IMG/VR virus record: IMGVR_UViG_3300037493_005407
Span: 945-64,944 of that record
Direction: 5' to 3' (one strand)
Length of the DNA stretch: 64,000 nucleotides
Source: a virus
Lineage: Duplodnaviria; Caudoviricetes
Shown here: piece by piece, positions 15,425-31,372 of the stretch
Position numbering within the stretch: position 1 is the stretch's first letter
How the letters are laid out: every line of letters starts with the position of its first letter
Program-made: the position numbers and the translations under genes
The notes under the pieces: generated by a model
The model's input: the letters and a program-made list of their open reading frames with translations, nothing else
Told to the model about the DNA's origin: nothing
Database searches by the model: none

Positions 15425-15431
15425 TTCACTT

Positions 15432-16106
15432 TCATCCTATCTCTTTTGCACGTGCCGCAACTTCTAGTTCTATATCCCGTTTGTGTATAACCTTAGCTCC
15501 GTATACGCATTGTTCTTCCCACACGTAATCAGTGTCGCGTATCATATACGTAGTACCCCACCGAGCAGCGTACATAAAGCACCACACCCACATATGCTTT
15601 TCTCGTGGCCGGTGTAACGTAAAGTGCGCGCGGTCAGCTACCTGCTTAAAAAGATTCGGAGAACGGACGTTATAAGAATTAGTTAGCGTTAGTATTGCGG
15701 GTATTTTATTTGGGTGGGTATCCGTTGATATGAAACACCTACAAGATCTCGGGCTGTCCGGATTGTACATTTCTAAATATATTCCGTTATGCAGAAGGGT
15801 ATCACCTATAGCAATTACGGATTTTTGTCTTTCGTCGCCTTTTAACGTACGTCTCGGAGAATATGCGCGCTCTCTCATTTCGGATGTATCCGGAGGTAGA
15901 GTAGGTTTATACGCCGTCACAGGTACCGTAAGCGCTACTGGCGCTTTTCCTATTGAATCTCCAATGACCGAAAACTCGAATAGAATCTTTGTTTCGTCAT
16001 ACTCGCCCGTCTTTAAGTTCATGGGAACGCCGCGTGTGTTTAGCTCAATAGCCATCTCCAGTTCGCTCTTACCCATAAATTCTGCAAACTCTGCTATCTT
16101 TTTCAT
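15432..16106 (-). CDS. hypothetical protein in an AT-richer segment
   Basis: 224-aa ORF, TTG start overlapping the upstream stop. Confidence 0.6.
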   Translation of the reverse strand: MKKIAEFAEFMGKSELEMAIELNTRGVPMNLKTGEYDETKILFEFSVIGDSIGKAPVALTVPVTAYKPTLPPDTSEMRERAYSPRRTLKGDERQKSVIAIGDTLLHNGIYLEMYNPDSPRSCRCFISTDTHPNKIPAILTLTNSYNVRSPNLFKQVADRAHFTLHRPREKHMWVWCFMYAARWGTTYMIRDTDYVWEEQCVYGAKVIHKRDIELEVAARAKEIG

Positions 16107-17458
16107 TTCACAATAGCCCTCTTCTCTGTGATAGGTGCGGCTTCAGGTCCGCGCCAATGCGGCTGAATCCAAATGTGTTTTCGATCGAGATGCCCGACAC
16201 CACACGCCTGGTTTCTCCAGTGACCACCTACGAGCGTGCGCACTTTCATCTTCCAGGAGCGTCCTTCTTCGTCGGTTCCTTCCGCGGCAGTATCACCCCG
16301 TTTGATGGTGTAGTTTCCGCCAAGGACAATAACGGGCCGGGGAGTGAAGTCACGAAGACGGTCTTTCAGCTTTTCTCGCTTACCGCCGGTAGCGTCGAGC
16401 ATCCGCTTACGGAGTGCGTCGTACTCGGGGTTGGCATCTCGGAGTACTGCATCGACTTCGGAGTTGGTGATGTACAAAACGGTGTTCATCAGAAACTCGA
16501 ACACCTCTTTGGCGGACTTCAAAACCTCAGGAGGAGTCTGACGCGTATCTACGTGATCAAACGTCCCCGTATACGTTCCACCACTAATCAGCGGAACCGT
16601 ATACTCAAAATGCGCTTTTCCTTTCATTACGTCGATTGAGAAATCCACGCACTCATCTACGCTCTTGTCGTCGAAGAGGGGCATGTAGTAATGGAAGATT
16701 TGGGCCGCGCCTATAGTGGAAGTTCTGCTGTCATCGCACACCACCACCATGCGCCACATGCGCATATCTTGGGGATTAGGATCTTCGATGATGTATGCGC
16801 CGTTAACGCTAAGGCCCCCTAAAGTTACGGGGTCTGCGTCGCTTAGCCCAATGTTAACGATGTTCATAGTGAACATCCCAGGAGGAAACGAGACGTAGAC
16901 ACCCGGGTGGGGCAGCTTGAGTTGGTCAGCTTTGAATTTCTTGAGATGCGTAATACGGAGACCCTCTGCTAGCTTGGGGCTCACAACGTACGTTTTCTTG
17001 CCCTCGTTTTCCCATTCGAGATGCGCGAACAGCGCGATAAACTGGAGCATTACGTTATTGGCGATGTACATACGGACAGCCTTATCCGTGTTTCCGTCTT
17101 CGTCTACGAATCCCCCCAGCATGCAAAACGTGCGTACGTAAGCTTCACGTAACGCCTTGAACTCATTGGTGCTGCACAGCATGTTGAAAGAGTGGGCATA
17201 CGCGAACGCGTACATCAGGTGCTTCAGAGGGGTTCTTGCAGTAGCAGCCAACTGCTCTAAATTCTTTTTGCCTACGTAATTGGGTACAACGTGCTCCAAG
17301 TAACGCGCTAGGAGCTCGTAGAATGTAATCGACGGGTCAGACCTTTTCTGTGAGTCCCAGTACGCGTCGTACTTGGATAACCCCCGCATGAACTCGTTCA
17401 GTTGTTCTGGGTGTATGTTCTTAGGTATCACGTACTCTCCTCCACGAGCAGCTTCCAC
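16103..17458 (-). CDS. phage protein with C-terminal VxGHWR motif
   Basis: LVGGHWRNQACG...HIWIQPHWRGP; 451 aa. Confidence 0.75.
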   Translation of the reverse strand: MEAARGGEYVIPKNIHPEQLNEFMRGLSKYDAYWDSQKRSDPSITFYELLARYLEHVVPNYVGKKNLEQLAATARTPLKHLMYAFAYAHSFNMLCSTNEFKALREAYVRTFCMLGGFVDEDGNTDKAVRMYIANNVMLQFIALFAHLEWENEGKKTYVVSPKLAEGLRITHLKKFKADQLKLPHPGVYVSFPPGMFTMNIVNIGLSDADPVTLGGLSVNGAYIIEDPNPQDMRMWRMVVVCDDSRTSTIGAAQIFHYYMPLFDDKSVDECVDFSIDVMKGKAHFEYTVPLISGGTYTGTFDHVDTRQTPPEVLKSAKEVFEFLMNTVLYITNSEVDAVLRDANPEYDALRKRMLDATGGKREKLKDRLRDFTPRPVIVLGGNYTIKRGDTAAEGTDEEGRSWKMKVRTLVGGHWRNQACGVGHLDRKHIWIQPHWRGPEAAPITEKRAIVK

Positions 17459-17745
17459 AGCTCGTTGATCTCCTCACGGTTACGGGCCTCATATTCCTCT
17501 TCTCTCCGCAAACGTTCCCGTGCCTCATCGAGCTCACGCTTGGCCTTTTCAAAATACCGCTCGCACTCTTCGACTCCCTTCTTGTAAACGAATAGGTCGT
17601 GGACTACCTCCTTACGGAAGTCCCGTTTAGCGTCGTAGTCCTCCAGGATGCTGGCTTTACTCCTCTGCATAAACCTTCTCTCCTCGATATACTGACCGTG
17701 TGATTTCCCGGTACGCGTGGGGCTCCATAAAGAAGGAGTACTCAA
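17428..17745 (-). CDS. coiled-coil hypothetical protein
   Basis: Charged helical ORF; true start probably MQRSK. Confidence 0.55.
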   Translation of the reverse strand: MSTPSLWSPTRTGKSHGQYIEERRFMQRSKASILEDYDAKRDFRKEVVHDLFVYKKGVEECERYFEKAKRELDEARERLRREEEYEARNREEINELWKLLVEEST

Positions 17746-18136
17746 GGGCGGTTAAGAACCCTTTTTCATCTGCTAGCACGCGGTCGTTTTCATACGCCGA
17801 TTTCATTAACACCTCACGACTTGTTAACATAGTCCGGAACTTTTCCGCACACCTTATACCAACGAAGCATGTCATATGATGTTGCTAACGTTGGTTCTAC
17901 GTGGTGTTGTTTGAGGATCACTTCGTACAGCACGCAGCCGCACGCGAACGCATTGGGTGGATACTGGTCAGTCGCCGCGGCTGCCACTGTACGGAAACCT
18001 GCTTCGCGCACCTCGCCCCCGAAGGCGCTCGATGAGAAGAAGCCTTCCTGCAAGTCGTTGACGAACTCCGAGACCCGCTCGTATTGCGTCAACCTTCGTT
18101 TATTGGGCATGTGGGGATCCTAGTAAGGCGGACAGG

Positions 18137-18349
18137 TCAGTCGTCTACGCTCTCAACCTCGACCTTAACGGCCGACTGGAGCTCGTGCTCGCTGAGGTCT
18201 TCGAAGACACTCGCCAGCACGTCGGTGAGGATGCTGGGGTCGTCGATATAGACCTGGCGGTCGACGTCAGCGATCTTCGATGGAACTTCGGTCTCGTAGT
18301 CTTCCGGGGTCACATCGTACGTAACGTTGATCTTCAATCTCAGCTTCAT
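18137..18349 (-). CDS. acidic hypothetical protein
   Basis: GGAGG RBS, 70 aa. Confidence 0.6.
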   Translation of the reverse strand: MKLRLKINVTYDVTPEDYETEVPSKIADVDRQVYIDDPSILTDVLASVFEDLSEHELQSAVKVEVESVDD

Positions 18350-18942
18350 AACTTTGCCTCCGCCAGCACTCGGTGGTGCTCTGTGATGGTCATGTGTGGG
18401 TAATTCTCTGTTAATAACAGATGCCCCACCTCATGTAACACAAGCGCCCGGGAACGTCCAAGGTCTTTAGGGCACCACTCGATAGCTATCTTCATACCTG
18501 ACTGGTATCCCCCGATTTTTGTGTTAGGCCGATGTTGATCCTGTAACGCAGAGAACGGATTAAGCTCGACGTAGTAGTAGATATCTCCCACGTGATGGTT
18601 GATAGCGATCTGTGGATGCGCATCGAGGGCGGCATCTGCCAATAACGCAAAACTTCCGACGTACATCGCAAACTCCCGCATGTCTCTGGTTCCCCGGTCG
18701 TAGGCGTAATGGCACAAGACTTCGTGCCTCTTGCCGCGGTACAGCACCCGCCGTTCACGTCGCCATGCCTCCCAGATGAGCATCGCTGGGATGGCCGCGA
18801 ACACTGCCACCATCGCCGCAGTCACACCCCTGGCAGCAGCTGCTCCGCAGAACGAATACAGCCAGCTGCCTCCGATGATGACTAGAACGATAGCCAAACT
18901 GGGGAGAAAGAACCTGAGGATTGCGCGAGTACGTGCGGTCAT
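18346..18942 (-). CDS. membrane-anchored zincin-like metallopeptidase
   Basis: Two N-terminal TM helices; VLHEVGH (HExxH) with downstream EHH. Confidence 0.55.
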   Translation of the reverse strand: MTARTRAILRFFLPSLAIVLVIIGGSWLYSFCGAAAARGVTAAMVAVFAAIPAMLIWEAWRRERRVLYRGKRHEVLCHYAYDRGTRDMREFAMYVGSFALLADAALDAHPQIAINHHVGDIYYYVELNPFSALQDQHRPNTKIGGYQSGMKIAIEWCPKDLGRSRALVLHEVGHLLLTENYPHMTITEHHRVLAEAKL

Positions 18943-18950
18943 TGAACCTC

Positions 18951-19169
18951 CTACTTGATCAACATGTTGTCCGTCAGATCCGACTGTGGGGGCATCTTTC
19001 GCCCCTCACCGAAGTTTACAGTGACTCGAGCGCCACATTGCTTGCACTCAAACGTGTCACCGCTCCAGGAGATTCCGCACAGGTTATGGACTTCTTGGCC
19101 GGTCTTGTGACAGACCATGAACACGCCGCAGCGAGCGCACACAGGAACTTCGAGCTTGTTGATTGTCAT
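18951..19169 (-). CDS. Zn-ribbon protein
   Basis: CARCG...GDTFECKQCG. Confidence 0.6.
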   Translation of the reverse strand: MTINKLEVPVCARCGVFMVCHKTGQEVHNLCGISWSGDTFECKQCGARVTVNFGEGRKMPPQSDLTDNMLIK

Positions 19170-19448
19170 GGGAATAGGTCCTCTATCCAGCCGGGTAGTC
19201 TCTCTCCCGGGCATCCTCGGTATACATTTTTTAACGACACCTTTAGACTCTGCATCGTATGCGTCATCTGAACATGCACTCCGTACCAATCGAAAAGCCA
19301 GCTGCAGATAACCTCCCCAATCTGATAGATGTTATTTGCGTTATGCATTTGGTCGCGGGAAACCAAACCAAAGCCGAGGAGCTCACAATTTCCTAAGTAG
19401 TTCGTGAGTTCTCCACGCATAGCCTTTAGCCTAGTTTCTTCGATAACG

Positions 19449-20102
19449 TTAGAAATGCGCACGTCGGATCCTATCTTCCACGCCGAGAAACATTAGGTCC
19501 TCCAAGACACATGGATCAAACGTCAGATCGAAGCGTTTCTCCTTAAAGAGGGGTAGGCAGTGTGTAACGAAGTATTCGCGGACGGTGTGGTTGGTATAGT
19601 CCGAGCTGATCGCAACGCCAATCGCTGATACGGTGTCCCAGTTGATGCGGCTGAGTCCGTACCAGATTTTGGCGTCAGGAATATGCCGCTGCTTATTCCC
19701 TTTTCGGGTGTAGAACTCCTCGACATTATCCCCGCGTCCCCGTCCTTTTGATAAGTAGACTTCTACGCCGTTATTCATAATCTGTCGAAACGACGTTACG
19801 TCCTTATTAGGTGCGAGCCACCGGTAACTCTGTACGCCTTTGACGTGGTTTACCCAGTTGCCACAATGGCACTTGCGATTTAGGCCCTCTTTGAGCTCTT
19901 CGAACTCAAGGTAATCTGAGTGCTCGTCCACGTTGATGAGCATGGTGGGTTGGTTCTGATTGACATGTTCAACCAGGTCTTCGTGACTTTCCACTAACAC
20001 CGGCCGGCTGTAATGATTTCGGACTTTGTAGAAAAACTTGACGAGATCTGCCGGCGGTTTGGTGTTGAAGAAGTCGAGGTCAACGGATAGGTACGTCGAC
20101 AT
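19449..20102 (-). CDS. UPF0489/arginase-deacetylase-like metallohydrolase
   Basis: LSVDLDFF, ESHEDL, INVDEHSD, HCGNWV motifs. Confidence 0.6.
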   Translation of the reverse strand: MSTYLSVDLDFFNTKPPADLVKFFYKVRNHYSRPVLVESHEDLVEHVNQNQPTMLINVDEHSDYLEFEELKEGLNRKCHCGNWVNHVKGVQSYRWLAPNKDVTSFRQIMNNGVEVYLSKGRGRGDNVEEFYTRKGNKQRHIPDAKIWYGLSRINWDTVSAIGVAISSDYTNHTVREYFVTHCLPLFKEKRFDLTFDPCVLEDLMFLGVEDRIRRAHF

Positions 20103-20218
20103 TTACTACCTTTCTCTCTAGTTGGATACTGTCGAAGATGCACAGGATGGCGGCATCTCCTAGGACACCGCGGTCATTTGCGTAGTTCCAGGCGGTTTGG
20201 AATCCGATCATCGTGACG

Positions 20219-20839
20219 TTAGGTAAGTAGGACAGGGGCATGCAGAACCACGATGTCCTCGTACAGGACGCGGTGACTCTCGGGTAGGCAGCGCCACATA
20301 TCCTGTGCCAGGCGCTGGTATTCGAGGAGTGCATCCTTAGCGAGGCGCGTGTTGAACAGGTTGCGCAGCGACCGCGCGTTGATAGTGACGTGAAGCTGCG
20401 TCAGCATCGAATCGGGGATGGCGTATTTTGCTACGTCGTTGGGAATTTTCTCCTGTACCAACTCGCAAAGAGATTCCATCTGGCACTTGGACGCCATGTC
20501 TACCATCGCGTTTCCGGTGTGGTAATACAGCGCCTCAACGTCTACTTTCTTAGAAAGCAGTTTCTTGAGAGTGAAGCGAGAGCTGCGAACGCTCAGCGTC
20601 GCGATGCGGGTGCGGGCGAACTCCTGCAGGCAGGCCCGGGAGAGCTCGACCTCGAAGGTGTAGACGACGTGCTCGAGGACGCTGGTGTGGCCGCTCGAGA
20701 TGCAGTGGCGCAGTAGCTTGGCGTCGTTTGGTCCGAGTATGTCCTTTACCGAGTCGTACTTATCCGCGGAGTCCTTACAGATGCGTGCAGCCTCCACGGC
20801 CGAAGTGATATCCGTGTGTCTTAGAAGCTTTGCTGACAT
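20219..20839 (-). CDS. thyX: flavin-dependent thymidylate synthase
   Basis: GHTSVLEH, SRACLQEFARTRIATLSVRSSRFT, AKYAIP, INARSLRNLF..RL...ALLE. Confidence 0.88.
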   Translation of the reverse strand: MSAKLLRHTDITSAVEAARICKDSADKYDSVKDILGPNDAKLLRHCISSGHTSVLEHVVYTFEVELSRACLQEFARTRIATLSVRSSRFTLKKLLSKKVDVEALYYHTGNAMVDMASKCQMESLCELVQEKIPNDVAKYAIPDSMLTQLHVTINARSLRNLFNTRLAKDALLEYQRLAQDMWRCLPESHRVLYEDIVVLHAPVLLT

Positions 20840-21936
20840 TTCGTTGTTCCTCTATGAGTAGGTTGGCGGTCTCTTCAAGCACATCGAGTGCGTTCGACCC
20901 GTTGTCTGCGTCGTACGCGTACCAGTATGCCATGTTTATTCCGTTACGCGTGTCGAATTTTAGGCTAGCCATCACGCATAACCTTGAGTTCTTAATTCAC
21001 GGGATCTTACTAAGACATCTTGTAGCAGCGCTTCTTTAATATGAAATCGAGCGTTAACGTTTTCAGGAGTAACCGCTGCGTCACAACAGAGTTCTCCGGC
21101 GTAAAACCAGGCTACCCTAGAACCAGCCTGATCTACGTTCCTTGAGAACGTACCAGACTTAGACGCATATTTGATTTTTGGTTTCTTCGTCATTGTTTTG
21201 ATACCTCCGCAACCGACGCGTCAAGCACGCGGTATGCCCGCGGGTAGTAGAAGAACATCTTACTGTCTGCATCGCGCTTACACGTGTGCTGCCATGCTGT
21301 TAGGAAACCGTGGTAGTAATACTGCCAGTCGTCATCGTCTTCAGTGCGTTTCTTCTCCTTCTTCACCTTCATCCCAACCCCTTCCTAAGGAGCCTATCGA
21401 TCTTTTTCTTGTACGAATACTCCGCTGATTTTGTGACCTGCTCTAGGCCCCGGTGGTGTACCAGGAAATTAGGACCGCCGAACTGGTCAACGATGATCCG
21501 CATGCAGTTGGCGTAATTGCACGCCTCCATAAAGCCTTCTTCGACTGCGTGTCGGACGTCATACCCCTTCATTTTCTAACCTCACAGCTGTGCGGATAGA
21601 TTCTTCCACAAGGTTTCTGTTCATCACGTGGGTGTAAATAGGACCGAACACGCCGTTAGCCTGCTCGGTGCTCATGTAGCACGCGTAGTCGTACGCCGTT
21701 AAATAGCCACAGCGTATGCGGTCGTCCCTTTGGTAGGCTGGCTTCTTTTGCTTCTTCATCGGGAATCGTAAAGTAACTGGGCCATCCTTTCTTCATGGCT
21801 CATGTTGAGGCACGAGTTGTAGATCACCTCTCGAGAGTAGTCGTTACTCCTGGGTGTGTAGTTTAACGCCGCCGCGAATCCACGTATCATGACAATGGTT
21901 ACGATGCGGTCATTGTCCAATAGCGCGGACATCTCC

Positions 21937-22290
21937 TCAGTCTGCGTCCTCATCCTCGTCTTCGACATCGGTGTCGGCATTGAGCTCCTCTTCTGATACT
22001 TCTTCACCGGCGGCACGCCGTGCTCTCGCCGCGGAGAGACGCTCTGCAGCCGCTTGGCGCTGCTCTGGAGTGAAGACACGGGCTGCGTCCGTCTTGAGCA
22101 CGAGGCCCGCACGCTTGGGAGAGTACTTGACCCACTCGAGGTTGGGGGTGCTCTTCTTGTACGGCTGCCATGAGTAGAGCGAGCAGGCAGAGTTTCCGCA
22201 GTCCCGGTCACGGTCAAAGTAATGCCCCATGCAGTCGTGACACTTGGCAAGAACTGCAGCCTTCATGGATGGTTTGGCTTCTTTGGTCAT
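21937..22290 (-). CDS. small Zn-binding phage protein with acidic tail
   Basis: AVLAKCHDC...DC...CSLY..QPY; AAGGAG RBS. Confidence 0.7.
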   Translation of the reverse strand: MTKEAKPSMKAAVLAKCHDCMGHYFDRDRDCGNSACSLYSWQPYKKSTPNLEWVKYSPKRAGLVLKTDAARVFTPEQRQAAAERLSAARARRAAGEEVSEEELNADTDVEDEDEDAD

Positions 22291-23024
22291 CGGTTCTCCT
22301 TTGTTCCCATCAGGATTAACAGCTCTCCAATTTGGTCTAGGCTGATCATTCGCATGGATTCGTCGATAACAGTTTTTACTGCGCGGTTCGCATCGAGTAC
22401 TACCGTGCTAAACCCGAGCATTTCGTGAGCTTTTTCTTGCGGTATTACTACCTTGGGTAGGGGCCTCATCGTAGGTACAGATTCCCGTAGTCAGTGCACA
22501 TATGCCAAAGAGTATTCTCGATGGCGTGTGTGTCCTGATGCTCAACTGCGAAGTGCTTGCGCCTCCAATATTGGAGAATCCGCGCATGGCCCATCGCTTG
22601 CGTCATCCCCCAGAGTCCGTAGGTCTTGCTTACGATACGGGGCTTCTTAGACTGGTAGTCCACTACTTTCTCTTTTGTAGGAATGACTCACTCTCCTCTA
22701 ACGCGCTCAGTTCTATCATGTGGCGTTGATGACCGTTATAGTACAGGTTATCAGCGAGTACGGTAGCATGAATAAACGACGTTGTTAACCCGTACTTATG
22801 GATCAAGTAGTTTACTGTTATGCTGTTAGCTCGAATCTTTTGGTAATCCTTCGGGAGAGCGTCCGTACCACTCATCCTCATCTCCTTTCTCTTCGAACAT
22901 CCGCATACTGATGGTTATGACGCGAACAGCACGCGCTCCTCGCCACCCAATATCCGTCATCTTTGCGAGAGTGGTGGCGTGTTGGTTAGCGGTGTTGAAC
23001 CCGCGGAAGGCGTCCGCGATGGCG

Positions 23025-23495
23025 CTAGATGAGAACATGCGGATCCCACGCACACGGCAACGAAAGCCCTAGTGGCGCGCGGACAACGTAGTCTTCGATG
23101 TCGAAGCGCACCGAAGCAAAGAACATTTCTTGACTGTCGTGCAGTTTGAAAGTGATCTCGTGCGTGCTGCGTTCCGCGTGAATCTTCCAACCAGAGCGCC
23201 ACTCCCCCAATTCTTTCTGCTTCTTGCTGTACCTGCGAATAGAGCACCCGCCGCCGCCATTAAAGATGTGTGCGAACTTAGACGAGTGCACCCGTAGCTC
23301 ATCGCGCTCGGGCAATACAATCAAGATGTGGTTGTCGATGATGCCGTTTAGAAACGTGATAGTTGGATTTTTCACCAGATTCGTCCTATCTGTTGGCTCG
23401 TAATGCTGAGAGAGTCTTCCACTAGAATCTGCGCCTTTATAGGCACTCGTGATTCTTCGCAGTGATTCCAAACTTCGCTGTACCCGCAAAAACAT
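23025..23495 (-). CDS. hypothetical protein inserted in the small-ORF array
   Basis: Long GC3-rich ORF; start uncertain. Confidence 0.5.
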   Translation of the reverse strand: MFLRVQRSLESLRRITSAYKGADSSGRLSQHYEPTDRTNLVKNPTITFLNGIIDNHILIVLPERDELRVHSSKFAHIFNGGGGCSIRRYSKKQKELGEWRSGWKIHAERSTHEITFKLHDSQEMFFASVRFDIEDYVVRAPLGLSLPCAWDPHVLI

Positions 23496-24019
23496 GCTCG
23501 GTCTTCGTACGTGAGAACGTTATCTCCAAAGGTTTCTTCGTCTTTAATAACCGGAGTCACCGTATCCCAGAAGATAGTGTCGTTGACAAACTTCCACTTC
23601 TTTAGGTGCTGCTGGTACGCTGTATCAAACCCGTACTTGCGTAATGTGATTTTGTAGTCCGCTAGCATGCTGTTACCAGAAATAGTTACTACGGGTACGT
23701 GTCGCCATGTACGAGGCGTCGAGAAGGTTGTACGCCCGCTCGTTGTTACTATTCAGCGCGTGGGCCATGGCCGTACTAAAGCCGTAGTACGCAATCATCG
23801 CGTTGTGTTCAGGCACGTTGGTATTTCCTCCATGGGGTAGAAATGAAGTTCGCAGAGATGCGTGTCAGAGGGTACCGCATCTCCATCTGGTATGTTTCGA
23901 GGTCGTTAAGGCTTAAGGTAAGCTCGTAAATCTGAGCATCTCGACTGAGCATCGAACGTGTCTCATAACTAGAGCACTCCGCCGCGGTTTCAAATCCCGC
24001 TCGCAGGTAGAACACGGGG

Positions 24020-24451
24020 TTATTTTTGTACAGCTTTCTTCTTTCGCTTCGGCGTTTTCTCTTGAGTTTTTTCTGTTTTGCTTTCATTAAGAACCTCGTC
24101 CAATCTTCTTATCATAGCTGCGTACCCCTGCATACGGTCCATAACGCTCGACTCGTCTACTTTTACGAGATGTGTTTCGTCTAGAGCAAATGGCACGTGG
24201 CCTGTCTCTAGGAGGAATTTTGCGTTTCGGACAAGCTGGATAGAGACCAGACTGGGATAGCTGTTACCTCGAGCAGTACGATCCATTATCTTCACAACTT
24301 GGTATACGCCACCTCCACTTCCGTTGTTTTCGTTATACGTACTGAACACCAAGTCACCGATACGCAGTTTCTTAACCGTGCTGACAGTAGTCTTTCCAGT
24401 TTTTCTGACAGTACTGAACCGTGTCATAGATTCGGTTGGGGTAAAGGGCAT
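24020..24451 (-). CDS. SH3-like beta-rich hypothetical protein
   Basis: AGGAGG RBS; LRIGDLV...GVYQVVKI. Confidence 0.6.
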   Translation of the reverse strand: MPFTPTESMTRFSTVRKTGKTTVSTVKKLRIGDLVFSTYNENNGSGGGVYQVVKIMDRTARGNSYPSLVSIQLVRNAKFLLETGHVPFALDETHLVKVDESSVMDRMQGYAAMIRRLDEVLNESKTEKTQEKTPKRKKKAVQK

Positions 24452-25637
24452 GCTACCTCCTACTTGAAGTACCAGACGCTGTTATGCACCACGGCTACAG
24501 CCGCGACGCGTTCGGAGTGCAGATACATCTGGAGTTTGGCGAAGTCGTAGGCGGTGCTGAACCCCGCCTTCTCAACGCTCGATTTGGGGATTGGTGGTTT
24601 TGGTCTTACTGGTTTCATTCGTCTTCCATCCAAACTGGATGACGTGCGTAGTGCTCTGCCTCCTCACAGATGTCCAAGATCCACAGACGCAAGGTATGAC
24701 GGGCACATGGGCTTATGCGGGTGTAGTCACGTTTGAGCTCGTTGGCATACCGGAAGGCGACGCTGACACCCGCGCGCTGTAACTCACTTAGGTCTGGGTC
24801 AAAGAAGGCTTTGTTGTTCCAGTCTTTGCGTGTGCGGCTACTCCGGCGGCGGTTAGGGCTGAAGCCTCTTCCCACTATGTACTGCATGTTTCCTCTTTAT
24901 CGAGCATGTACTCCGGGACGTTCTTGGAGCAGTGTTGCCACGCTAAGATAAGGTCCTGTACATAGAACTTTTGAGCTTCAACAGTCATCCGTTGCCTACG
25001 CTCACAGATAATGATTCCTACATGGTCTATTTTGCCAGACTGAAACGCGCGGTAATACGCCGTATCCCATCCGTACCTAACATCCACTGGAGCATCCGGC
25101 ACATAACCAGCTGCAAAGGTAACTGAGCGGTATTCAATTGCGGCTAGGTTTAGAAAATGCCTCCTCCTCTTTAGTGACGCCGTCTTCTTTTCACGTTTAG
25201 TACGCCAGTCGTGACGTGAGTTGTGCGCCATGCTTTTTCTCCCACCCATAGCGGCCTAGCTTTCCATCTCCGGTGTACTCTCTAACTTGTGTGACGCTAT
25301 TTGTGATGATGGTAATATGGATATGACTCCACGCGTTGCAGTAAACAGTTCCGAAGCCAGCCCGATAGTTTTGCATGTACTGTTTGTCCATGTCTCGCGC
25401 AAGTTGTCTACGAGATACTGTCTCCCAATGATCTTCCCTGACGCATCGGAAATCAGCATGTGCTGCCGCTTCATGGTATCCAGGGACTTGTGTATCTCCC
25501 ATTCGACTCCTAGTCCGTCGCGGTTATCGTACGCGGTTGAGTAACCAAAGTAGTCAGCGAGGCTCTGATAGCTCAGAGGCATATACCACTCCGTAGTCTT
25601 TCCAGTTTTTCTGACACCACTGAACCGTGTCATAGAT
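24387..25637. repeat. 45-bp direct repeat, copies at 24387-24431 and 25593-25637, 2 mismatches
   Basis: GTAGTCTTTCCAGTTTTTCTGACA(GT/CC)ACTGAACCGTGTCATAGAT. Confidence 0.9.
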
Positions 25638-28600
25638 AACGTTGAACGGCCGCTCTACGGGTGGCTGCATCATCGAAGAGTGCTCGTACGCAACAGATAG
25701 TCCGAAGTGATTAACCAAATCCGAAAATATGCTCATACGCGCGTCCTCCCACTTTACAGGTATTAGTGTCGCAGCCATTCCATTTCCAGATCGCGCTGTG
25801 TGACGTGCAGCATAATCATCTGACGGTCGTCGTCGTAGATTGTGCCGTTGCGGAGCTCGAACAAGTGCTGCACGACTTCACGTAGACCGGCGACATCGAA
25901 CTTTCTGAAACCGTAGGTAAACCAGAAATAATTATCTGTATCGAGCGATGTAAAAATCTGTGGTTTCTCTTGTACCTCTCCATCTCTGTTATCTGGCACT
26001 TGGCTAGCTCCATGAGTCCGTGGAATTCAGCGGTTGCGAATCCCATCACAACTAAAAGATCCGCTGGTTGGGTGGTGTCAGACATACGCTGTCTCCGTAT
26101 TCAAGAGCACCCAAGTGCTCTCGCGGATGATATCCCTCCCGGTGTTGGTGAGCCCTAGGCATTTCTTACAGTGGTACACATAGTGTTCGTCCTCGATGGT
26201 TTTCGCGTATTCCCAGGAAGTCTTAAACCCTTTCGTAGTTACGTGCGTGTGATGCACGTTTACCATGAGGCCAGAGCATGTGCGGTTGTTCATGGCCACG
26301 GAGGATTCCGTAACTGTTTAGCTTTTTCGATAGACATAAAGATAGTGGTATATCCCGCAGCATAAAGGACTGTTTTTGAGTGGCTCAGCGCTTCCCAGTA
26401 TCCCGCGGCAAAGGCGACTCTATCCCGGTCTAGGTCACTTGTAATGTGCAGGGGGTTCCAAGTACGTACACTCGGTTTTTTGAACGACATGCTTCACCGT
26501 GTTGGGTAGAAAAATTCCTTCTTCTCGATTGTGAGTGATTCGTGCAACTTCCACATTACTTTGGCGTCGTACTCATCTTCTATAATCTCGTACGTGTAAT
26601 CTAGGACGGTCCAGTAACCTCGCTGAATAGCGATACTATCACGCTCGGTGTCATCCCGGACAGTCGTTTTGGCCGCAACAGCGCGCCGCTGCCCACTCAT
26701 GTCCCAGATCCACGTGACATCCTTTGTTATGCGCTGCTGGTCTGGCTTAGGTCTAGGCATGTCTGCGCCTCGATGCTCTCCCAGATAACGTTATGTATCC
26801 GCCCAAACAGATTTCCTTTCATCTTGGACATGGAGTACCAGTACGCCTCGGCAAACCCGTCGAGGCAATCTAGGAGGGTTGGGCTGTTACCGTCCATGGA
26901 TCACCAGTCTAGTGACGGTATCATAGAGCTCGGAAGCATCAGGACCCTGGAGGACGTTAAAGGTCTTTACCAGCGTCTTCAGCTCGTGACTGTACTCGAG
27001 ACTTTCTACGTGGTGCAAGGCCGCTGCGAATCCGTAGCGTTCGGCATTGTCCTGAAACTGGTTTTTGTCGAACTTACCAACGTAGACGTTACTATACGGC
27101 GGTAGGATCACCTGGTAGTTCCTTTCCTGCGAAATACGACAACGTCTTTTTCACTTCCGCGAACTGATGCTGCTGTTGTGGCGACCCCCACTGCTCATTC
27201 AGCTCCAGGTAGCCGACGATGTTATAAACCGTTAGCATCCCCCAGGCTTCAATAAATGCACTGTGGCGTATGGTCAGATGTGCTCTCGTCATGCCTCCTC
27301 CAGTGTTCCTCCGTCATGGACCTTCCTAGGGCCTCGAGTTGTTCACTCTCCCGGTAGTACTCCTTACCGTTTCTGAGGGTGTATACGTCCATGTGTTTCC
27401 GAGCCGTGTAGAATCCGAGCTGCTTATATTGCGTGGGATCGAAGCGTAAGACCATCTATGGCCCTCCGTATCAGCGTTAAGTGCAGCATGGACTGTGCCC
27501 AGCCTTCATCGATCATGATATGTGAATACGCAGTACCAAAGCCAGCGTCTTCAGCTTGTTCTTGGTAGACCAGTGCCATCGCTTGCTCCTAGTAATTTGA
27601 AGAAGTTGACGCTGCGGGAGACCTCAATCAAATGCGAGCGGTTGATACCGCGAGGAGCGGCGCACGTAATGTACTCCCGTATGGCGTAGAAGCCCCACTT
27701 CTCATGCTCGGGCCAGTTTACCGGCGTGTCATACCCATCGTTTCGTTCTGTATAGCCGTTACCACGCTGCACCGTAACATGCGCATGCCGTCCCATGGTT
27801 TACGCCTCTTTTTGAGTTTTTGGTAAATGTTCGTGGTGTAAACAAAGGCTGACCAGTAGCCGTACGTTTCGTAAGCGAGGCTCTCCTCGTCGAACAGCAC
27901 GGTGCTGATGAGCTTGTTTCGTTCTTGGGTTTCGGGGTCTGGTTTTACTACCAACCTACGCCTCTTATAAGGGTTTCGAGTGTCATGTGAAGTGCATTGA
28001 TTTGGTTCGCTACCTGCTCGTGTTGCCAGCAACGCGGTATGTACTTTTTGATGCATCCCGTTGCAACGGCGAGGTCGTTCGAGAATTCGCGAGCGGTGCG
28101 TAACCCGCATACTTCGTACAGGTCACGCATGGGCTTATAGAGCATGACCTTTTCCCCATTCCCTCCATAGATTGTTTAGGGTGTCTATGATTGCGTCCAC
28201 TTGGTAACGCACCGACTCGCTTTTTCCGTGCCATACGTCTGGTAGTTCGTCGTCTGCTACGTACTCCTTGTCTTGTGTGTATCGGCGGGCTGTTAGGACT
28301 CCTACCGTCGCGTATTGAACACGTCGTTCTTCAGAGATGTGCAGGGGTGGTTTCATTTGGGCTCGATAGCAGTAGCGCTACAATAGTTCGTTGAATTTCT
28401 TCCCATTCTCTCCTGGACACGGTCCACCGGTTATCTTCCATTAAATAATGGAGTATCGTTTCTAACCCAGCGTCTTGATAACGCTTAAAGAAGGGCGGTA
28501 GTGATTTCATAGATTGTTTCCAAATCAGACAGGGTGTAGCGAAGTTCATTCCACGCGCCTGTGTACTTTTCGCTGTGCTCCAGGAGCAGTAGGTGACTGA

Positions 28601-28668
28601 TCGCTATGAGAGTTCCGTGTAGGTGGTGGCGCGCGAAGTAGGCGTGGTTTAATAAACCCTCAGATTTA

Positions 28669-29034
28669 TCACCACTTGTTAACGGCATCGCGTACCTGAT
28701 TTTGAAGGTCACGCATCTGCCATCCCCGGCCCATCTTGGAACTGAAGATGCCGAGGTCCGCGGCGATCTTCTTCATGAGGGCAAGCCCGTGCACGCCTTC
28801 CAGGGCATTGATGGGAGCACCGTTCATGTCGAACAGCTGGGACTTAGGATTCCGCTTTTCCGTGGTGTGGCGCTCGGCGACATCCTTGAGGACTGTGGGA
28901 GGCACTCCCAGCTCGACGAGTTGTGCGATTGCGTAAATGGTGTGACCGTCTCCGCCGAGGAAATCGAGAATCTCTTCGACCTTTTCTTTTCCGAGTTCTT
29001 TGGTCCAATTCATTGTGGTTGAATCTGTAGCCAT
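28669..29034 (-). CDS. hypothetical protein inserted in the array
   Basis: GAGGA RBS; 121 aa. Confidence 0.65.
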   Translation of the reverse strand: MATDSTTMNWTKELGKEKVEEILDFLGGDGHTIYAIAQLVELGVPPTVLKDVAERHTTEKRNPKSQLFDMNGAPINALEGVHGLALMKKIAADLGIFSSKMGRGWQMRDLQNQVRDAVNKW

Positions 29035-29447
29035 GGGTAATCCTCTCTTGCTGCGTTTTCGATGCTTTGAGCGAGTTCGAAGCGGGATATGTCAAGGACA
29101 CATCCTGGGATGTTTAGTTGGTGCCAAGCGGCCGTGGTGTAACCACAGTCATCGGCGATTTGTGTGAACCTTGCGGAGTAGTTCCATTCAAACAGGGTGT
29201 CTTCCATTCAGAGGCTCCAAGACGATTAGGATGGTGTGGTCTGGAAGGATTTCGCAGATAACGACTCAGAGCTCCGGGTGTGCCTCGAGCTGGTTACCCG
29301 CTGTACGTAGGGCGCCTTCAGGCGTCATCACAATGCGGATGCGCGTTAGTGAACCCTCAGCATTCTTCTCCTGGACATAGGACCCCTGCATGACGACTAC
29401 CTCCTGGATTTGTGTTTTGGTGCACCCACCTAGGAGAAAGGCTAGTA

Positions 29448-29690
29448 CTACAACGAGCCTTTTACCAAAAGTGCATGCGGATTCCATTGCAGAGGTCCGT
29501 CGTATTTTTTCCATTGTCCGTTCACTTTACTATAAACGACGTCGCATTCACAACATTGAATAACCGTCTCAGAGTACATCATGATGTTACTCGCGCACTC
29601 GGGGCACGTGTCGAACTCGGGCATGATTATGGTTTCCAATCCAGGAACTCCTTCTGGTGAAAACAAAACCCGATAGCCGTTGCCAGACAA
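29448..29690 (-). CDS. Zn-ribbon protein
   Basis: CPEC...CCECD. Confidence 0.5.
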   Translation of the reverse strand: MSGNGYRVLFSPEGVPGLETIIMPEFDTCPECASNIMMYSETVIQCCECDVVYSKVNGQWKKYDGPLQWNPHALLVKGSL

Positions 29691-30456
29691 TACGCCCTGT
29701 TGTTTTTCAAGATCTCGTCACAGTAACTTAGGACCGTAGTGAATCCTTGGTCATACGCAAAGAATATGACTCCATCGTTGCTTTCCCCAGAGGCCATCAC
29801 AACCCTATTTAGTAAACGGTATTCGTCTAAACGTGGGATATCTTCAGTTAAGAAACGTAAAAAATATTCACGTGTACTAAAGTGCGGATTACTGCTCATT
29901 TCTTGCGGCCTCTTCCGTCACCATACTGATATGCATTTGCATGTTACGGTAGATAAGGGTGGCTGTTTCGCTTCTTTCCCACCTACCCTGTGTATGACTT
30001 AGGAAGATACTGTGTGTTGTTACCGTATAGAAGCCGGCAGCTTCTCCATAGTGCATATTGAGATTTCTGAAGTCGAGCTGAGCAGAGTCGCTAATCATCT
30101 TTTGTTTCCTCCGCGATTACTCCTTCGTTCATGCGGGAGCTTACTGTTTCGAGAATGAGTTCAACGGCGAGGGCGGTCGTTACGGAGCGGAGGGCTGTTT
30201 CGAAGCCTTCCCCATCGGCTAAGGCATAGAGCATTTCGGTGGCGATGTCAGCTCCCATACCGCCCCTTTCAGCGTGTCGTTAAGGTCAGGAAAAAAGGCG
30301 TGTAGGTCTTTGCCCTGAAGGACGTCCAAGGTGTCCAGGATGACCTGCCCCGCTTCGCCGCGCCACGCCATCATATGCACCGTAATTAGACCGTGCTCCT
30401 TGAGGGCGTGCATGCGAAAGACACCTTCGAGATTTTCGTTTGGTTTATCCTGGTGC

Positions 30457-30696
30457 TTAAGCGTCATACTTAACCTCAACCGTGATGCTTTCCAGTACCG
30501 CTTCGAGAGCCTCCTTGGCTATCGCGATTGGGATATGGTTGTCCGTGATAACGCCTACGATAGCCGTCATCAGCGTCGTCATCATCTCTGCGGGTTCCCA
30601 CTCGTCGTCGTCACAGTCGAATGAGACGACCTGGTCCGTTTCGTTGATACTCGTTAGCCCGATAATGATTGTCTTAGTGTCGTCTTCAGCCGCCAT
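30457..30696 (-). CDS. acidic hypothetical protein
   Basis: Start MAAEDD. Confidence 0.55.
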   Translation of the reverse strand: MAAEDDTKTIIIGLTSINETDQVVSFDCDDDEWEPAEMMTTLMTAIVGVITDNHIPIAIAKEALEAVLESITVEVKYDA

Positions 30697-30958
30697 TGCG
30701 TGCCTTTTGTAGTGCCTCTTCGCCCCCAAGCGCGTTTAATAGGCGTGCGTATTCCGTGTCTGTGCCTAGGTGGCGCCATGTATACTCAAAAGCGGCATCT
30801 ATTATCGCAGTACATACGGGCTCGCACAAGTCCCCATCTTCAGTGCATTTCATTGTAAATACGCAGAAAGGCCGACAAACAGTATGCGATTCGTGGAGCC
30901 GGTAATGCTCACAAGTATGGTCACACCGTGTTTTCCCCCGACGGGTGTTCAGGTCCAT
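30686..30958 (-). CDS. Cys-rich hypothetical protein
   Basis: GGAGGA RBS. Confidence 0.55.
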   Translation of the reverse strand: MDLNTRRGKTRCDHTCEHYRLHESHTVCRPFCVFTMKCTEDGDLCEPVCTAIIDAAFEYTWRHLGTDTEYARLLNALGGEEALQKARNGG

Positions 30959-31136
30959 TGGATATTCCTCCGAGCTTGTCGAGCTCTGCGAGTTCCCGCC
31001 GTATCTTACCGGCGTAGAGATTGATGTACTCCGCTTGTCCGCAGGTGCGTGTTATGAGCCTAGCCAGGTGTGCAATTGCGAGGAGGTGCTGCATCCGCTT
31101 TCCAGCGGTTTCAACCGTGGGAGGAACGAGCGTCAT
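30921..31136 (-). CDS. hypothetical protein
   Basis: GGAGGG RBS. Confidence 0.55.
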   Translation of the reverse strand: MTLVPPTVETAGKRMQHLLAIAHLARLITRTCGQAEYINLYAGKIRRELAELDKLGGISNGPEHPSGENTV

Positions 31137-31145
31137 GGTGCCCTC

Positions 31146-31370: not shown

Positions 31371-31372
31371 GC

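What the first reader, a model, noticed from the sequence alone, without database searches (positions are those of the whole stretch)
17657..30479. About 40 tandem micro-genes sharing one G-F-x-T-A-x-x-Y/H motif
Seen: a ~13 kb minus-strand run of overlapping or translationally coupled ORFs of 45-125 aa with little overall similarity but one shared short motif. Copies by ORF left coordinate: GFLTALEY 17657, GFRTVAAA 17814, GFQTAWNY 20080, GINMAYWY 20775, GSRVAWFY 20972, GFLTAWQH 21190, GFMEACNY 21369, GYLTAYDY 21559, GFAAALNY 21756, GFSTVVLD 22287, GMTQAMGH 22466, GLTTSFIH 22663, GFNTANQH 22826, GFDTAYQQ 23372, GFSTAMAH 23673-23816, GFETAAEC 23809, GFSTAYDF 24460-24618, GVSVAFRY 24615, GWDTAYYR 24875, GFGTVYCN 25197, GYSTAYDN 25256, GLSVAYEH 25554, GFATAEFH 25816, GFKTSWEY 26078, GYWEALSH 26290, GYWTVLDY 26494, GFAEAYWY 26727-26897, GFAAALHH 26887, GMLTVYNI 27092, GFYTARKH 27249, GFGTAYSH 27424-27579, GFYAIREY 27551, GYWSAFVY 27718, GLRTAREF 27948, GVLTARRY 28135, GLETILHY 28331, GYTTAAWH 29010, GFTTVLSY 29627, GFYTVTTH 29889, GFETALRS 30091-30234, GLITVHMM 30219. 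Five of these (ranges given) are below the ORF-track cutoff. Codons under the motif vary synonymously, so conservation is at the protein level. Many have basic or Pro-rich N-termini and a second helix 15-25 aa downstream. Inference: a greatly expanded, diversified family of helical mini-proteins with a common docking motif and variable surfaces, for example a library of adaptors, decoys or anti-defence factors that plug into one partner. I recognise no described family.
Basis: partly seen in the sequence, partly recalled or inferred. Interest (0 to 1): 0.88.

Follow-up and report, generated by a model that had tools for sequence, protein, structure and literature searches.

The report
Forty-copy mini-protein family in a phage
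A 13 kb stretch of an uncultivated sediment phage encodes about forty very diverged copies of one new 50-70 residue helical protein, and close strains gain, lose and swap these copies one gene at a time, as viral host-interaction gene families do.

Summary
On the minus strand of 17657-30479, G-F-x-T-A occurs 12 times and nowhere else on that strand of the window. It is also the top gapped word in an unbiased count. Its codons vary synonymously. A second motif, [ILV]-x-x-[ST]-[ILVM], lies 15-41 residues downstream in 30 of 41 candidates; shuffles gave 6.8 +/- 2.2. Of the 41 candidates, 33 are well supported, 6 moderately and 2 not. Strain differences are mostly synonymous in the predicted frames.

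The family matches nothing in Pfam, PHROGs, NCBIfam, PDB sequences or fold libraries. I found it only in this phage and its roughly 95%-identical strains. Those strains differ by deletion or replacement of whole genes. More distant relatives have only 1.7-4.5 kb where this phage has about 20 kb of small genes.

AlphaFold2 with the paralogues as alignment gives a small helical domain, pLDDT 81. My best reading (about 0.4) is one scaffold with variable surfaces, used against host defence or other host proteins. The motif is probably the packing core, not a docking site; this is inferred, not shown.

The parts
17657..30479 (-). Whole array: tiled, mostly overlapping or abutting minus-strand small ORFs. 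About 40 carry the family domain. ThyX and about 12 unrelated small genes are interspersed.
   Evidence: (tiling; many junctions overlap by 1-14 nt)
30219..30467 (-). Candidate GLITVHMM: NOT supported as a member
   Evidence: leave-one-out -0.5 bits; 863 null positions score as well
30091..30258 (-). Member GFETALRS
   Evidence: 2 of 116,805 null positions as good
29889..30098 (-). Member GFYTVTTH (moderate support)
   Evidence: 14 null positions as good; orthologues kept in other strains; 2 synonymous and 1 non-synonymous strain changes
29627..29797 (-). Member GFTTVLSY
   Evidence: leave-one-out above all non-members
29010..29207 (-). Member GYTTAAWH
28331..28549 (-). Member GLETILHY (moderate support); roughly the stretch skipped in strains X3 and X4
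   Evidence: 8 null positions as good; skip 28296->28503
28135..28356 (-). Member GVLTARRY
   Evidence: 0 null positions as good
27948..28145 (-). Member GLRTAREF
27718..27954 (-). Member GYWSAFVY
   Evidence: 0 null positions as good
27551..27796 (-). Member GFYAIREY. It overlaps both neighbours in another frame, and its motif region is a same-length diverged segment between strains.
   Evidence: 1 null position as good; 27621->27713 'same length, diverged'
27424..27579 (-). Member GFGTAYSH
   Evidence: 15.4 bits
27249..27455 (-). Member GFYTARKH
   Evidence: orthologue P0015
27092..27292 (-). Member GMLTVYNI
   Evidence: orthologue P0050
26887..27111 (-). Member GFAAALHH
   Evidence: 15.2 bits
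26727..26897 (-). Member GFAEAYWY
26494..26700 (-). Member GYWTVLDY (the ORF may start at 26760)
   Evidence: 15.0 bits
26290..26490 (-). Member GYWEALSH
26078..26293 (-). Member GFKTSWEY
   Evidence: 15.7 bits; orthologue P0049
25816..26085 (-). Member GFATAEFH (moderate support); its 3' part overlaps ORF 25763-25999 in another frame
   Evidence: 8 null positions as good
25554..25736 (-). Member GLSVAYEH
   Evidence: 2 null positions as good; orthologue P0011 with H->Y at motif position +7
25256..25633 (-). Member GYSTAYDN. The domain lies in the first ~55 residues, and a long 3' tail overlaps the next member.
25197..25391 (-). Member GFGTVYCN
   Evidence: 0 null positions as good
24875..25249 (-). 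Member GWDTAYYR (moderate support; start uncertain)
   Evidence: 12 null positions as good
24615..24887 (-). Member GVSVAFRY
   Evidence: 6.5 bits against 5.6 for the best non-member; weak
24460..24618 (-). Member GFSTAYDF; folded as model 2
   Evidence: 23.0 bits; in-frame 15-nt deletion in other strains
23809..24087 (-). Member GFETAAEC with a strongly basic N-terminus
   Evidence: 2 null positions as good; pI 10.2
23673..23816 (-). Member GFSTAMAH
   Evidence: 14.0 bits
23372..23668 (-). Two-domain member: GFDTAYQQ and GYSEVWNH
   Evidence: orthologue P0007 differs at 11 of 98 residues
22826..23038 (-). Member GFNTANQH
   Evidence: orthologues P0012-P0014
22663..22881 (-). Member GLTTSFIH
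22466..22663 (-). Member GMTQAMGH (moderate support); replaced by 195 other letters in strains X3 and X4
   Evidence: 20 null positions as good; joint 22483->22691
22287..22469 (-). Candidate GFSTVVLD: weak, not supported by motif 1 alone
   Evidence: 113 null positions as good; leave-one-out 3.0 bits
21756..21932 (-). Member GFAAALNY
   Evidence: 1 null position as good
21559..21759 (-). Member GYLTAYDY; skipped in strains X2 and X3
   Evidence: 17.4 bits; joint 21572->21765
21369..21572 (-). Member GFMEACNY
21190..21372 (-). Member GFLTAWQH; folded as model 1
   Evidence: 22.8 bits; orthologues P0017-P0019
20972..21193 (-). Member GSRVAWFY; removed exactly as one gene in strains X3 and X4
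   Evidence: 1 null position as good; joint 20972->21197
20775..20972 (-). Member GINMAYWY
   Evidence: 2 null positions as good
20080..20241 (-). Member GFQTAWNY
   Evidence: 12.6 bits
17814..18110 (-). Member GFRTVAAA (moderate support)
   Evidence: 9 null positions as good
17657..17806 (-). Member GFLTALEY
   Evidence: 20.8 bits; orthologues P0025-P0027
20219..20839 (-). Not a member: flavin-dependent thymidylate synthase ThyX, embedded in the array
   Evidence: PF02511, E 5.7e-37
16103..17458 (-). Not a member: conserved 451-aa protein just downstream of the array, used as the synteny anchor

Best explanation
Shown or strongly supported:
- The region encodes about 39 real copies (33 well supported, 6 moderate) of one new protein domain of about 45-50 residues.
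- Each copy has a variable N-terminal lead-in, often basic.
- Then comes a helix carrying [A/Y/V]-[E/D]-x-[A/Y]-G-[F/Y]-x-T-A-[Y/L/W]-x-[Y/H]-[A/S].
- A loop of variable length follows, and then a second helix carrying [I/L/V]-x-x-[S/T]-[I/L/V/M].
- The genes are packed end to end on one strand, so they are probably made from long polycistronic messages with coupled translation.
- They are under purifying selection in the predicted frames.
- Among strains about 4% apart in DNA, the array changes by loss, gain or replacement of whole genes.
- More distant relatives have nothing of the kind at the matching genome position.

Inferred:
- The conserved residues are the packing core of a tiny helical scaffold: small residues G, T, A and an aromatic on one helix face, meeting the Ser/Thr-hydrophobic face of the next helix.
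- Everything else on the surface is free to change.
- The phage therefore carries a repertoire of about 40 binders on one scaffold.
- These are made early or with the replication genes. Each neutralises or redirects a different host protein, or a different variant of one.
- The most likely targets are components of host anti-phage defence or other host-takeover targets.
- The repertoire arose by repeated tandem duplication followed by fast divergence, and is kept current by gene-by-gene exchange between co-circulating strains.
For: The family is real:
- Motif enrichment.
- An independent second motif in 30 of 41 candidates, against 6.8 +/- 2.2 (maximum 14) in 2000 shuffles and 18% of 1700 control windows.
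- Leave-one-out HMM: 23 of 41 beat every non-member. The position matrix supports 10 more strongly and 6 moderately.

The genes are coding:
- Synonymous codon diversity under the motif.
- ORFs are kept in other strains, with indels in multiples of three.
- Of the 40 strain differences the tool listed (out of 1098), those in family genes are 9 synonymous and 4 non-synonymous. Those in other genes are 22 and 2.

Fold: two AlphaFold2 models with the paralogues as the alignment, pLDDT 81.0 and 80.9. Both are helical around the two motifs.

Variable surface: pI 4.1-10.2 (16 below 6, 10 between 6 and 8, 15 above 8). No family pair is found by BLASTP at E<1e-3.

Turnover between strains:
- Joint 20972->21197 removes gene 20972-21193.
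- Joint 21572->21765 removes gene 21559-21759.
- Joint 22483->22691 replaces a gene with 195 other letters.
- Joint 28296->28503 skips 206 bases.
- Joint 29794->29897 replaces 102 bases with 126.

Lineage-specific region: window 10374-17458 is colinear with L002, and window 37555-42806 also has its counterpart there. In L002, L003 and L004 the two blocks lie only 1.7-4.5 kb apart, against about 20 kb here. No member was found in those records or loci, nor in phage Arash. The same search found 33 matches in the window's own record, as a positive control.

Precedent from established knowledge: a small T4 anti-defence gene, tifA, is amplified in tandem under selection by a host toxin-antitoxin defence (abstract of PMC9391042). 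Hyperplastic regions of T4-type phages change by cassettes (search listings with abstract openings of PMC2839356 and PMC4122927).
Against: - No member has any detectable relative of known function, and no binding partner is known.
- Expression is not shown.
- I could not inspect model coordinates, so the claim that the motif packs against helix 2 is untested.
- The two models disagree on whether the invariant Gly sits inside a continuous helix or at a kink.
- Adjacent copies are not more alike than random pairs (p = 0.15), so there is no trace of recent duplication.
- Strain-level variation is only weakly lower at motif positions: 5 of 114 against 49 of 549, p = 0.13.
- The excess of non-synonymous change in family genes over the other genes rests on 13 sites.
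- The record is only 36% complete, so its gene programme (early or late) is unknown.
Confidence: 0.4

Rival explanations
1. The motif is an exposed docking face that plugs every paralogue into one common partner, for example a phage or host polymerase, a protease, a chaperone or the neighbouring 451-aa protein. The variable remainder recruits different cargos, so the proteins are adaptors or decoys.
For: - One invariant Gly and a one-sided stripe of conserved residues that includes polar T and Y/H.
- The rest of each protein is unconstrained.
Against: - A second conserved motif of core type, hydrophobic-x-x-S/T-hydrophobic, lies in the next helix. Conserved hydrophobic positions at -4, -1, +1, +4, +5 and +8 look like a folding core.
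- No candidate partner was tested.
Confidence: 0.2
2. Small nucleic-acid-binding regulators. A short helix, a Gly turn and a second helix act like a helix-turn-helix, helped by basic N-terminal tails, and the paralogues recognise different DNA or RNA sites.
For: - Model 2 has a helix, a break at G-F and then a helix.
- Ala is common at -4 and Gly is invariant, as in classical helix-turn-helix motifs (the comparison is recalled).
- 15 of 41 members have pI above 8 and several have Lys/Arg-rich N-termini.
Against: - No helix-turn-helix family hit in Pfam for any of the 41 at E<0.1.
- No fold match.
- 16 of 41 members are acidic.
- Model 1 shows a continuous helix through the Gly.
- The loop before the last helix varies by 26 residues, which is unlike compact DNA-binding domains.
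Confidence: 0.1
3. Capsid-targeted or injected proteins. The shared N-proximal motif is a packaging or targeting signal, like the capsid-targeting sequence shared by the otherwise unrelated T4 internal proteins. The variable parts act in the next host after injection.
For: - A shared short N-proximal motif on otherwise unrelated small proteins in a variable locus resembles T4 internal proteins (recalled knowledge, not tested).
- An acidic residue is frequent at -3 before the Gly.
Against: - The motif starts anywhere from residue 3 to about 60, not at the N-terminus.
- A second conserved motif lies further in.
- The genes sit with ThyX and helicase-type genes, far from the capsid gene at 58360-59274.
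Confidence: 0.07
4. Functionless remains: old duplicates drifting apart, or chance ORFs in a fast-changing spacer region.
For: - Extreme divergence.
- Individual genes are dispensable between strains.
- Two listed candidates are not supported.
Against: - Frames are kept open and tiled over 13 kb.
- Strain differences are biased to synonymous sites.
- Indels are in threes.
- Two motifs are conserved through saturated divergence.
Confidence: 0.05
5. Precursor peptides of a ribosomally made natural product. A conserved leader is recognised by one modifying enzyme and is followed by hypervariable cores, as in prochlorosin gene sets.
For: Many small genes share a conserved N-terminal part and differ in the rest. 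A membrane protein with an HExxH motif lies at 18346-18942 (read).
Against: - Several members end 4-11 residues after the second conserved motif, which leaves no core peptide.
- No modifying-enzyme family appeared among the 20 other window proteins scanned with Pfam.
Confidence: 0.03

Closest known systems
Tandem amplification of small counter-defence genes in viruses (T4 tifA against ToxIN; poxvirus K3L 'accordion', recalled)
   Same: A small viral gene multiplied in tandem in an accessory region, under selection from host defence (abstract of PMC9391042).
   Different: Those copies are near-identical and transient. Here there is no DNA-level repeat and no pairwise protein similarity at E<1e-3, so the copies are old or very fast-evolving, and each is distinct.
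Multigene families of large eukaryotic DNA viruses (African swine fever virus MGF110/360/505, poxvirus ankyrin and BTB families; recalled)
   Same: Dozens of diverged paralogues sit in variable genome regions. Copy number differs between strains, and the families are linked to host range and immune evasion.
   Different: Those are eukaryotic viruses with much larger proteins. I know of no phage case of this size, and my three literature searches found none.
Hyperplastic regions of T4-type phages with mobile promoter/stem-loop cassettes
   Same: A region of small accessory genes lies between conserved blocks, and close strains differ by insertion, deletion and replacement of single genes (search listings with abstract openings of PMC2839356 and PMC4122927).
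   Different: Genes in those regions are unrelated to one another. Here they are one family. No repeated flanking DNA motif was found, and no sigma-70-like promoter on the coding strand inside the array.
T4 internal proteins sharing a capsid-targeting sequence (recalled)
   Same: Otherwise dissimilar small proteins share one short N-proximal motif, and their loci are variable.
   Different: That signal is at the extreme N-terminus and is cleaved off. Here the motif lies at a variable depth and is paired with a second internal motif.
Arrays of diverged immunity genes beside bacterial polymorphic-toxin loci (recalled)
   Same: Tandem small paralogues on a common scaffold, each thought to neutralise a different partner.
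   Different: Those are bacterial and adjacent to a toxin gene. No toxin gene was recognised here.

Membership tests
Any family in Pfam-A, PHROGs v4 or NCBIfam 20 | Significant match of members to the family profile | tested here: not met
   All 41 were scanned singly. Pfam: 5 single-member chance matches, best E 0.0015. PHROGs: 1 member at E 0.0088. NCBIfam: 1 member at E 0.0063. No family was hit by more than one member.
Any protein with a solved structure | Sequence-profile or fold match | tested here: inconclusive
   Profile against PDB sequences: best E 0.14. Foldseek PDB: best E 1.8 and 6.3. VIA-align wide: best Z 4.8 and 3.9, generic helical hairpins. BFVD: best hit an uncharacterised 66-aa protein of Pseudomonas phage phiPMW, TM 0.63, E 0.36.
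Helix-turn-helix DNA-binding domains | Profile match to a helix-turn-helix family; compact three-helix fold with a tight turn | tested here: inconclusive
   No helix-turn-helix family at E<0.1 in 41 members. The models disagree on a break at the Gly. There are no fold matches, and the fold-search tool notes say that a missing match does not exclude a fold.
Type IV pilin-like prepilin signal (G|F-T-L-I-E plus hydrophobic stretch; recalled definition) | Glu five residues after the Gly, followed by about 20 hydrophobic residues | tested here: not met
   Position +5 is Y 11, L 8, W 4, R 4, A 3, F 3, M 2. Only one listed member (GFATAEFH) has Glu there. The following residues are polar or charged.
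Gene accordion (recent tandem amplification) | Near-identical tandem DNA copies | tested here: not met
   No direct repeat longer than 52 nt in 17400-31400, and that one is unrelated to the motif. Neighbours are not more alike than random pairs.
T4-type hyperplastic region with promoter/stem-loop cassettes | (a) Single-gene indels between close strains; (b) a conserved promoter/stem-loop at cassette borders | tested here: inconclusive
   (a) Met. (b) Not found: there is no sigma-70-like site on the minus strand within 20103-30479, both minus-strand sites (19754 and 15805) lie in or beside non-family genes, and there is no repeated border motif. The phage may use promoters that the scan does not cover.
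T4-type internal proteins with capsid-targeting sequence | Shared motif at the extreme N-terminus; protein packaged in the head | tested here: not met
   The motif Gly lies at residues 3-49 of the called proteins, typically 12-30. Packaging cannot be tested with these tools.
Ribosomal natural-product precursor sets (prochlorosin-like) | Conserved leader followed by a core peptide; a modifying enzyme nearby | tested here: not met
   Tails after the second motif are as short as 4-11 residues. No such enzyme appeared among the 20 other proteins scanned. The other 64% of the genome is unseen.
Diversity-generating retroelement target | Template/variable repeat pair and a reverse transcriptase | tested here: inconclusive
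   No repeat pair matches the diverged segments 27621-27713 or 19940-20026. I did not search specifically for a reverse transcriptase.

The most novel reading that the evidence does not exclude
A phage carries an inherited repertoire of about 40 binders built on a single 45-residue scaffold, each tuned to a different host defence protein or allele. The repertoire is kept current by swapping single genes between co-infecting strains. This would be a bacterial-virus counterpart of the immune-evasion multigene families of large eukaryotic viruses. It would also be a natural, evolvable mini-binder library whose scaffold rules (G-F-x-T-A-x-x-Y/H plus I-x-x-S-I) could be read directly from the 40 copies.
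Probability: 0.3. Interest if true: 0.85.

Novelty: new variant of a known kind. Interest (0 to 1): 0.72.

Why it matters
- Expanded, diversifying gene families are a hallmark of host-virus arms races in large eukaryotic viruses, but are rarely described in phages. Three literature searches turned up no phage case of this size.
- This family cannot be found by pairwise comparison. Only a motif or a profile reveals it, so similar repertoires may be hidden in the unannotated small-ORF regions of other large phages.
- If the members are counter-defence or host-takeover binders, 40 natural variants of one minimal scaffold would give many testable inhibitors at once. They would also form a ready data set on how a tiny fold tolerates surface change.
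- The gene-by-gene differences between strains make the evolutionary dynamics directly observable in metagenomes.

Tried and rejected
Searches for relatives that found nothing:
- Megablast of the array against 50,697 phage records: no match.
- tblastn of the 505-aa spike-like protein against the same records: no match.
- Single-protein scans of viral contigs with ThyX, the 451-aa protein and the 98-aa member: no relatives.
- Metagenome scan with P0007: nothing.
- P0023 was too short for that tool.

Profile searches of the big libraries:
- Profile search of 1.84 billion representatives gave 7 hits at E<=0.001. Four are the window's own proteins, one is a close orthologue differing at 11 of 98 residues, and two are repetitive unrelated proteins.
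- This search could not have found an equally diverged array elsewhere. Left-out members score at most 23 bits, and about 36-40 bits are needed at that library size.
- The word-indexed search with the profile collected only 22 candidates. It returned only the window's proteins and their strain orthologues.

Other look-ups:
- ESM Atlas: no usable feature hit, and the structure rows were unrelated.
- Fold searches: nothing above generic helical hairpins.

Binding and expression:
- Homodimer prediction for the core of 21190-21372: no verdict, score 0.02. It counts neither way.
- No RNA holder was listed among the sequencing runs. That says nothing about expression.

Abandoned or failed steps:
- A two-motif DNA pattern for scanning viral contigs was dropped. 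Even in this array it matches at most once per gap range.
- Two broad literature searches returned mostly irrelevant papers.

Readings considered and rejected (see the rival explanations and membership tests): pilin-like signal, natural-product precursors, diversity-generating retroelement target, and a DNA- or RNA-level signal translated by chance. The last is rejected by codon diversity.

Full report
WHAT THE RECORD IS. The window is bases 945-64944 of a 64,944-bp virus record. The source classes it as linear, and CheckV rates it 36% complete. By extrapolation the whole genome may be about 180 kb.
- It has no DNA-level relative among 50,697 phage records.
- Few of its large proteins match Pfam or PHROGs.
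- Recognisable genes: an SNF2-type helicase (8373-9779), a DHH phosphoesterase (6503-7537), a gp5-like spike (47979-49496) and ThyX (20219-20839).
- The capsid protein at 58360-59274 is 41% identical to the major capsid protein of Salmonella phage Arash, a 180.8-kb phage. Arash also has the closest helicase, at 39% identity.
- Near-identical and about 95%-identical DNA occurs in sediment metagenomes from several studies.

From 17.4 to 31 kb the minus strand is tiled with small ORFs. Most overlap their neighbour by 1-14 nt or abut it.
- GFxTA occurs 12 times on the minus strand, all inside 17657-30479. It occurs once on the plus strand, outside the region.
- The looser G[FYWLM]xT[AV] occurs 26 times inside the region, 3 times elsewhere on the minus strand and 6 times on the plus strand.
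- In 83 other loci (827 kb), GFxTA occurs 13 times per 1.65 million six-frame residues.
- A count of all gapped four-residue words in the array's 97 minus-strand fragments ranks GF.TA first, followed by overlapping pieces of the same motif. The rest of the genome yields only low-complexity words.
- The four Gly codons are used 12, 12, 9 and 8 times. The Thr and Ala codons are similarly mixed.
- The only notable DNA repeat in the region has nothing to do with the motif.
Conservation is therefore in the protein.

IT IS A HOMOLOGOUS FAMILY, NOT JUST A SHARED WORD.
- Anchoring the sequences on the Gly shows an extended first motif: [A/Y/V]-[E/D]-x-[A/Y]-G-[F/Y]-x-T-A-[Y/L/W]-x-[Y/H]-[A/S].
- A second motif, [I/L/V]-x-x-[S/T]-[I/L/V/M], lies 15-41 residues further on.
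- The second motif is present in 30 of 41 candidates. Shuffled tails gave 6.8 +/- 2.2 (maximum 14 in 2000 shuffles), and 18% of 1700 control windows have it.
- In a leave-one-out HMM test, 23 of 41 candidates outscore every non-member six-frame fragment of the genome (1307 fragments in all).
- The remaining 18 were scored with a matrix built from those 23. Ten are matched by at most 2 of 116,805 null positions, six by 8-20, and two are not supported: 22287 and 30219.
- The 98-residue ORF 23372-23668 contains two copies of the domain.
- No further member lies elsewhere in the record.
- The copies are so diverged that BLASTP finds no family pair at E<1e-3. Neighbours are no more alike than random pairs (p = 0.15).

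THE GENES ARE CODING AND CONSTRAINED.
- The same ORFs are called in other assemblies. Length differences are multiples of three, for example 11+2+2 nt left out of 24460-24618, giving 47 residues instead of 52.
- The read-laying tool printed 40 of 1098 strain differences. In family genes these are 9 synonymous and 4 non-synonymous. In the other genes they are 22 and 2.
- At the protein level, 5 of 114 motif positions and 49 of 549 other positions vary between strains. This is a trend only (p = 0.13). Four of the five motif changes move to residues common in the family: H to Y at +7, and T or S to Ala at +8.

THE ARRAY TURNS OVER GENE BY GENE. Contigs from four other runs were laid on the region. 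By my sum of the pieces of the 42-kb contig, they differ by about 4% in sequence. They carry these joints:
- 20972->21197 removes exactly gene 20972-21193.
- 21572->21765 removes gene 21559-21759.
- 22483->22691 replaces gene 22466-22663 with 195 other letters.
- 28296->28503 skips about one gene.
- 29794->29897 replaces 102 letters with 126.
- 27621-27713, which holds the motif region of one member, is a same-length diverged segment.

THE REGION IS SPECIFIC TO THIS LINEAGE.
- The 451-aa protein just downstream of the array has relatives at 37-43% identity in three viral contigs, L002-L004.
- Window 10374-17458 is colinear with L002. The block at window 37555-42806 is also present there, but inverted and only 1.7 kb from the 451-aa gene. 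I measured a gap of 1.7 kb in L002, 4.5 kb in L003 and 1.7 kb in L004 (to a second copy of the gene), against about 20 kb of small genes here.
- Neither those records nor their loci searched with my own HMM hold a member. Nor do the L003 gap region read directly, the 59 metagenome loci or phage Arash.
- The same genome search found 33 matches in the window's own record.
- The search of 1.84 billion representatives found only the window's proteins, one close orthologue and two repetitive false hits. That search lacked the power to detect an equally diverged array elsewhere, because left-out members reach at most 23 bits.

STRUCTURE.
- With the paralogues as the alignment, AlphaFold2 gives pLDDT 81.0 for 21190-21372: helix 11-30, a short hairpin at 31-41 and helix 44-59.
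- It gives pLDDT 80.9 for 24460-24618: helix 12-18, a break at the invariant G-F, helix 21-33 and helix 38-51.
- Both models place the first motif in a helix and the second motif in the last helix. They disagree on whether the Gly kinks the chain.
- Nothing in the PDB or BFVD matches beyond generic helical hairpins. No sequence profile match exists.
- G, T, A and Y/H fall at i, i+3, i+4 and i+7, which is one face of a helix. Hydrophobic positions at -4, -1, +1, +5 and +8 flank them.
- I infer that this small-residue face packs against the Ser/Thr-hydrophobic face of the last helix and forms the core of a minimal scaffold. I could not check this, because model coordinates are not given.

HOW IT MOST LIKELY WORKS.
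- Shown: one new domain in about 40 copies, coding, constrained in two short motifs, otherwise free to vary (pI 4.1-10.2). It is packed into one transcription direction together with nucleotide-metabolism genes, in a lineage-specific region that changes by whole genes between close strains.
- Inferred: the family is a repertoire of small binders on one scaffold aimed at host proteins, most probably anti-phage defence components or other takeover targets. It grew by tandem duplication and is kept diverse by an arms race and by recombination between strains.
- This reading rests on analogy. A small T4 counter-defence gene expands in tandem under selection (abstract of PMC9391042). Accessory regions of T4-type phages are built from cassettes (search listings with abstract openings of PMC2839356 and PMC4122927). 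Large eukaryotic viruses carry multigene families (recalled).
- I put it at about 0.4.
- Small nucleic-acid binders (0.1), capsid-targeted proteins (0.07), functionless remains (0.05) and natural-product precursors (0.03) are less likely, for the reasons given under each.

NOVELTY AND VERDICT.
- The kind of thing, an expanded and diversifying viral gene family in a variable region, is known. A phage array of about 40 hyper-diverged copies of a 45-residue domain is not something I found described in three literature searches, and the family itself is new to the libraries searched.
- I rate it a new variant of a known kind, with interest 0.72.
- Supplementary files of papers were not consulted and do not bear on these claims.

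Noticed in passing
window 2330-2671 (+): A full-length tmRNA gene (Rfam RF00023, 89.1 bits, E 2.9e-33). ARAGORN gives the tag peptide AEPQEMLKAA. It is a phage-borne tmRNA in a record with no tRNA genes.
   Followed up: partly
window 24387-24438 and 25593-25644: A 52-nt direct repeat, 90% identical, gives two otherwise different ORFs (24020-24451 and the family member 25256-25633) the same N-terminal peptide, MTRFS.VRKTGKTT. Other strains lack 45-48 nt at exactly 24385-24434. It looks like a small mobile or recombining N-terminal segment.
   Followed up: partly
window 37555-42806 versus L002 318-8298: This conserved gene block, which includes the 604-aa protein, is inverted relative to the 451-aa gene block in the relatives L002-L004 and lies next to it there.
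   Followed up: partly
window 16103-17458; L004 9075-9902: The conserved 451-aa protein carries a precomputed label PF26125 in the protein collection. The local Pfam copy reported no family for it; only its C-terminus hits phrog_15934. The relative L004 has a second, diverged copy directly upstream.
   Followed up: no
window 18346-18942 (-): A 198-aa protein with hydrophobic N-terminal segments and an HEVGH (HExxH) motif, read from the translation. It has no Pfam or PHROG hit. It may be a membrane metalloprotease inside the small-gene region.
   Followed up: partly
window 55776-56234 and 56239-56697 (-); 44846-45721 and 45762-47912 (-): Two pairs of ordinary paralogues in the structural region: 50% identity over 156 residues, and 33% over 201 residues.
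   Followed up: no
window 61292-63694 (-): An 800-aa ORF with a weak LAGLIDADG-like match (E 3e-4, below the Pfam cut-off). Part of it is similar to a structural protein of phage Arash. It may carry an inserted homing-endonuclease-like segment.
   Followed up: no
window 25197-25633, 25763-26085, 27424-27954: Several family members overlap a neighbour by 60-190 nt in a different frame. The conserved domain lies in the non-overlapped part, and a long low-scoring tail runs into the next gene.
   Followed up: partly
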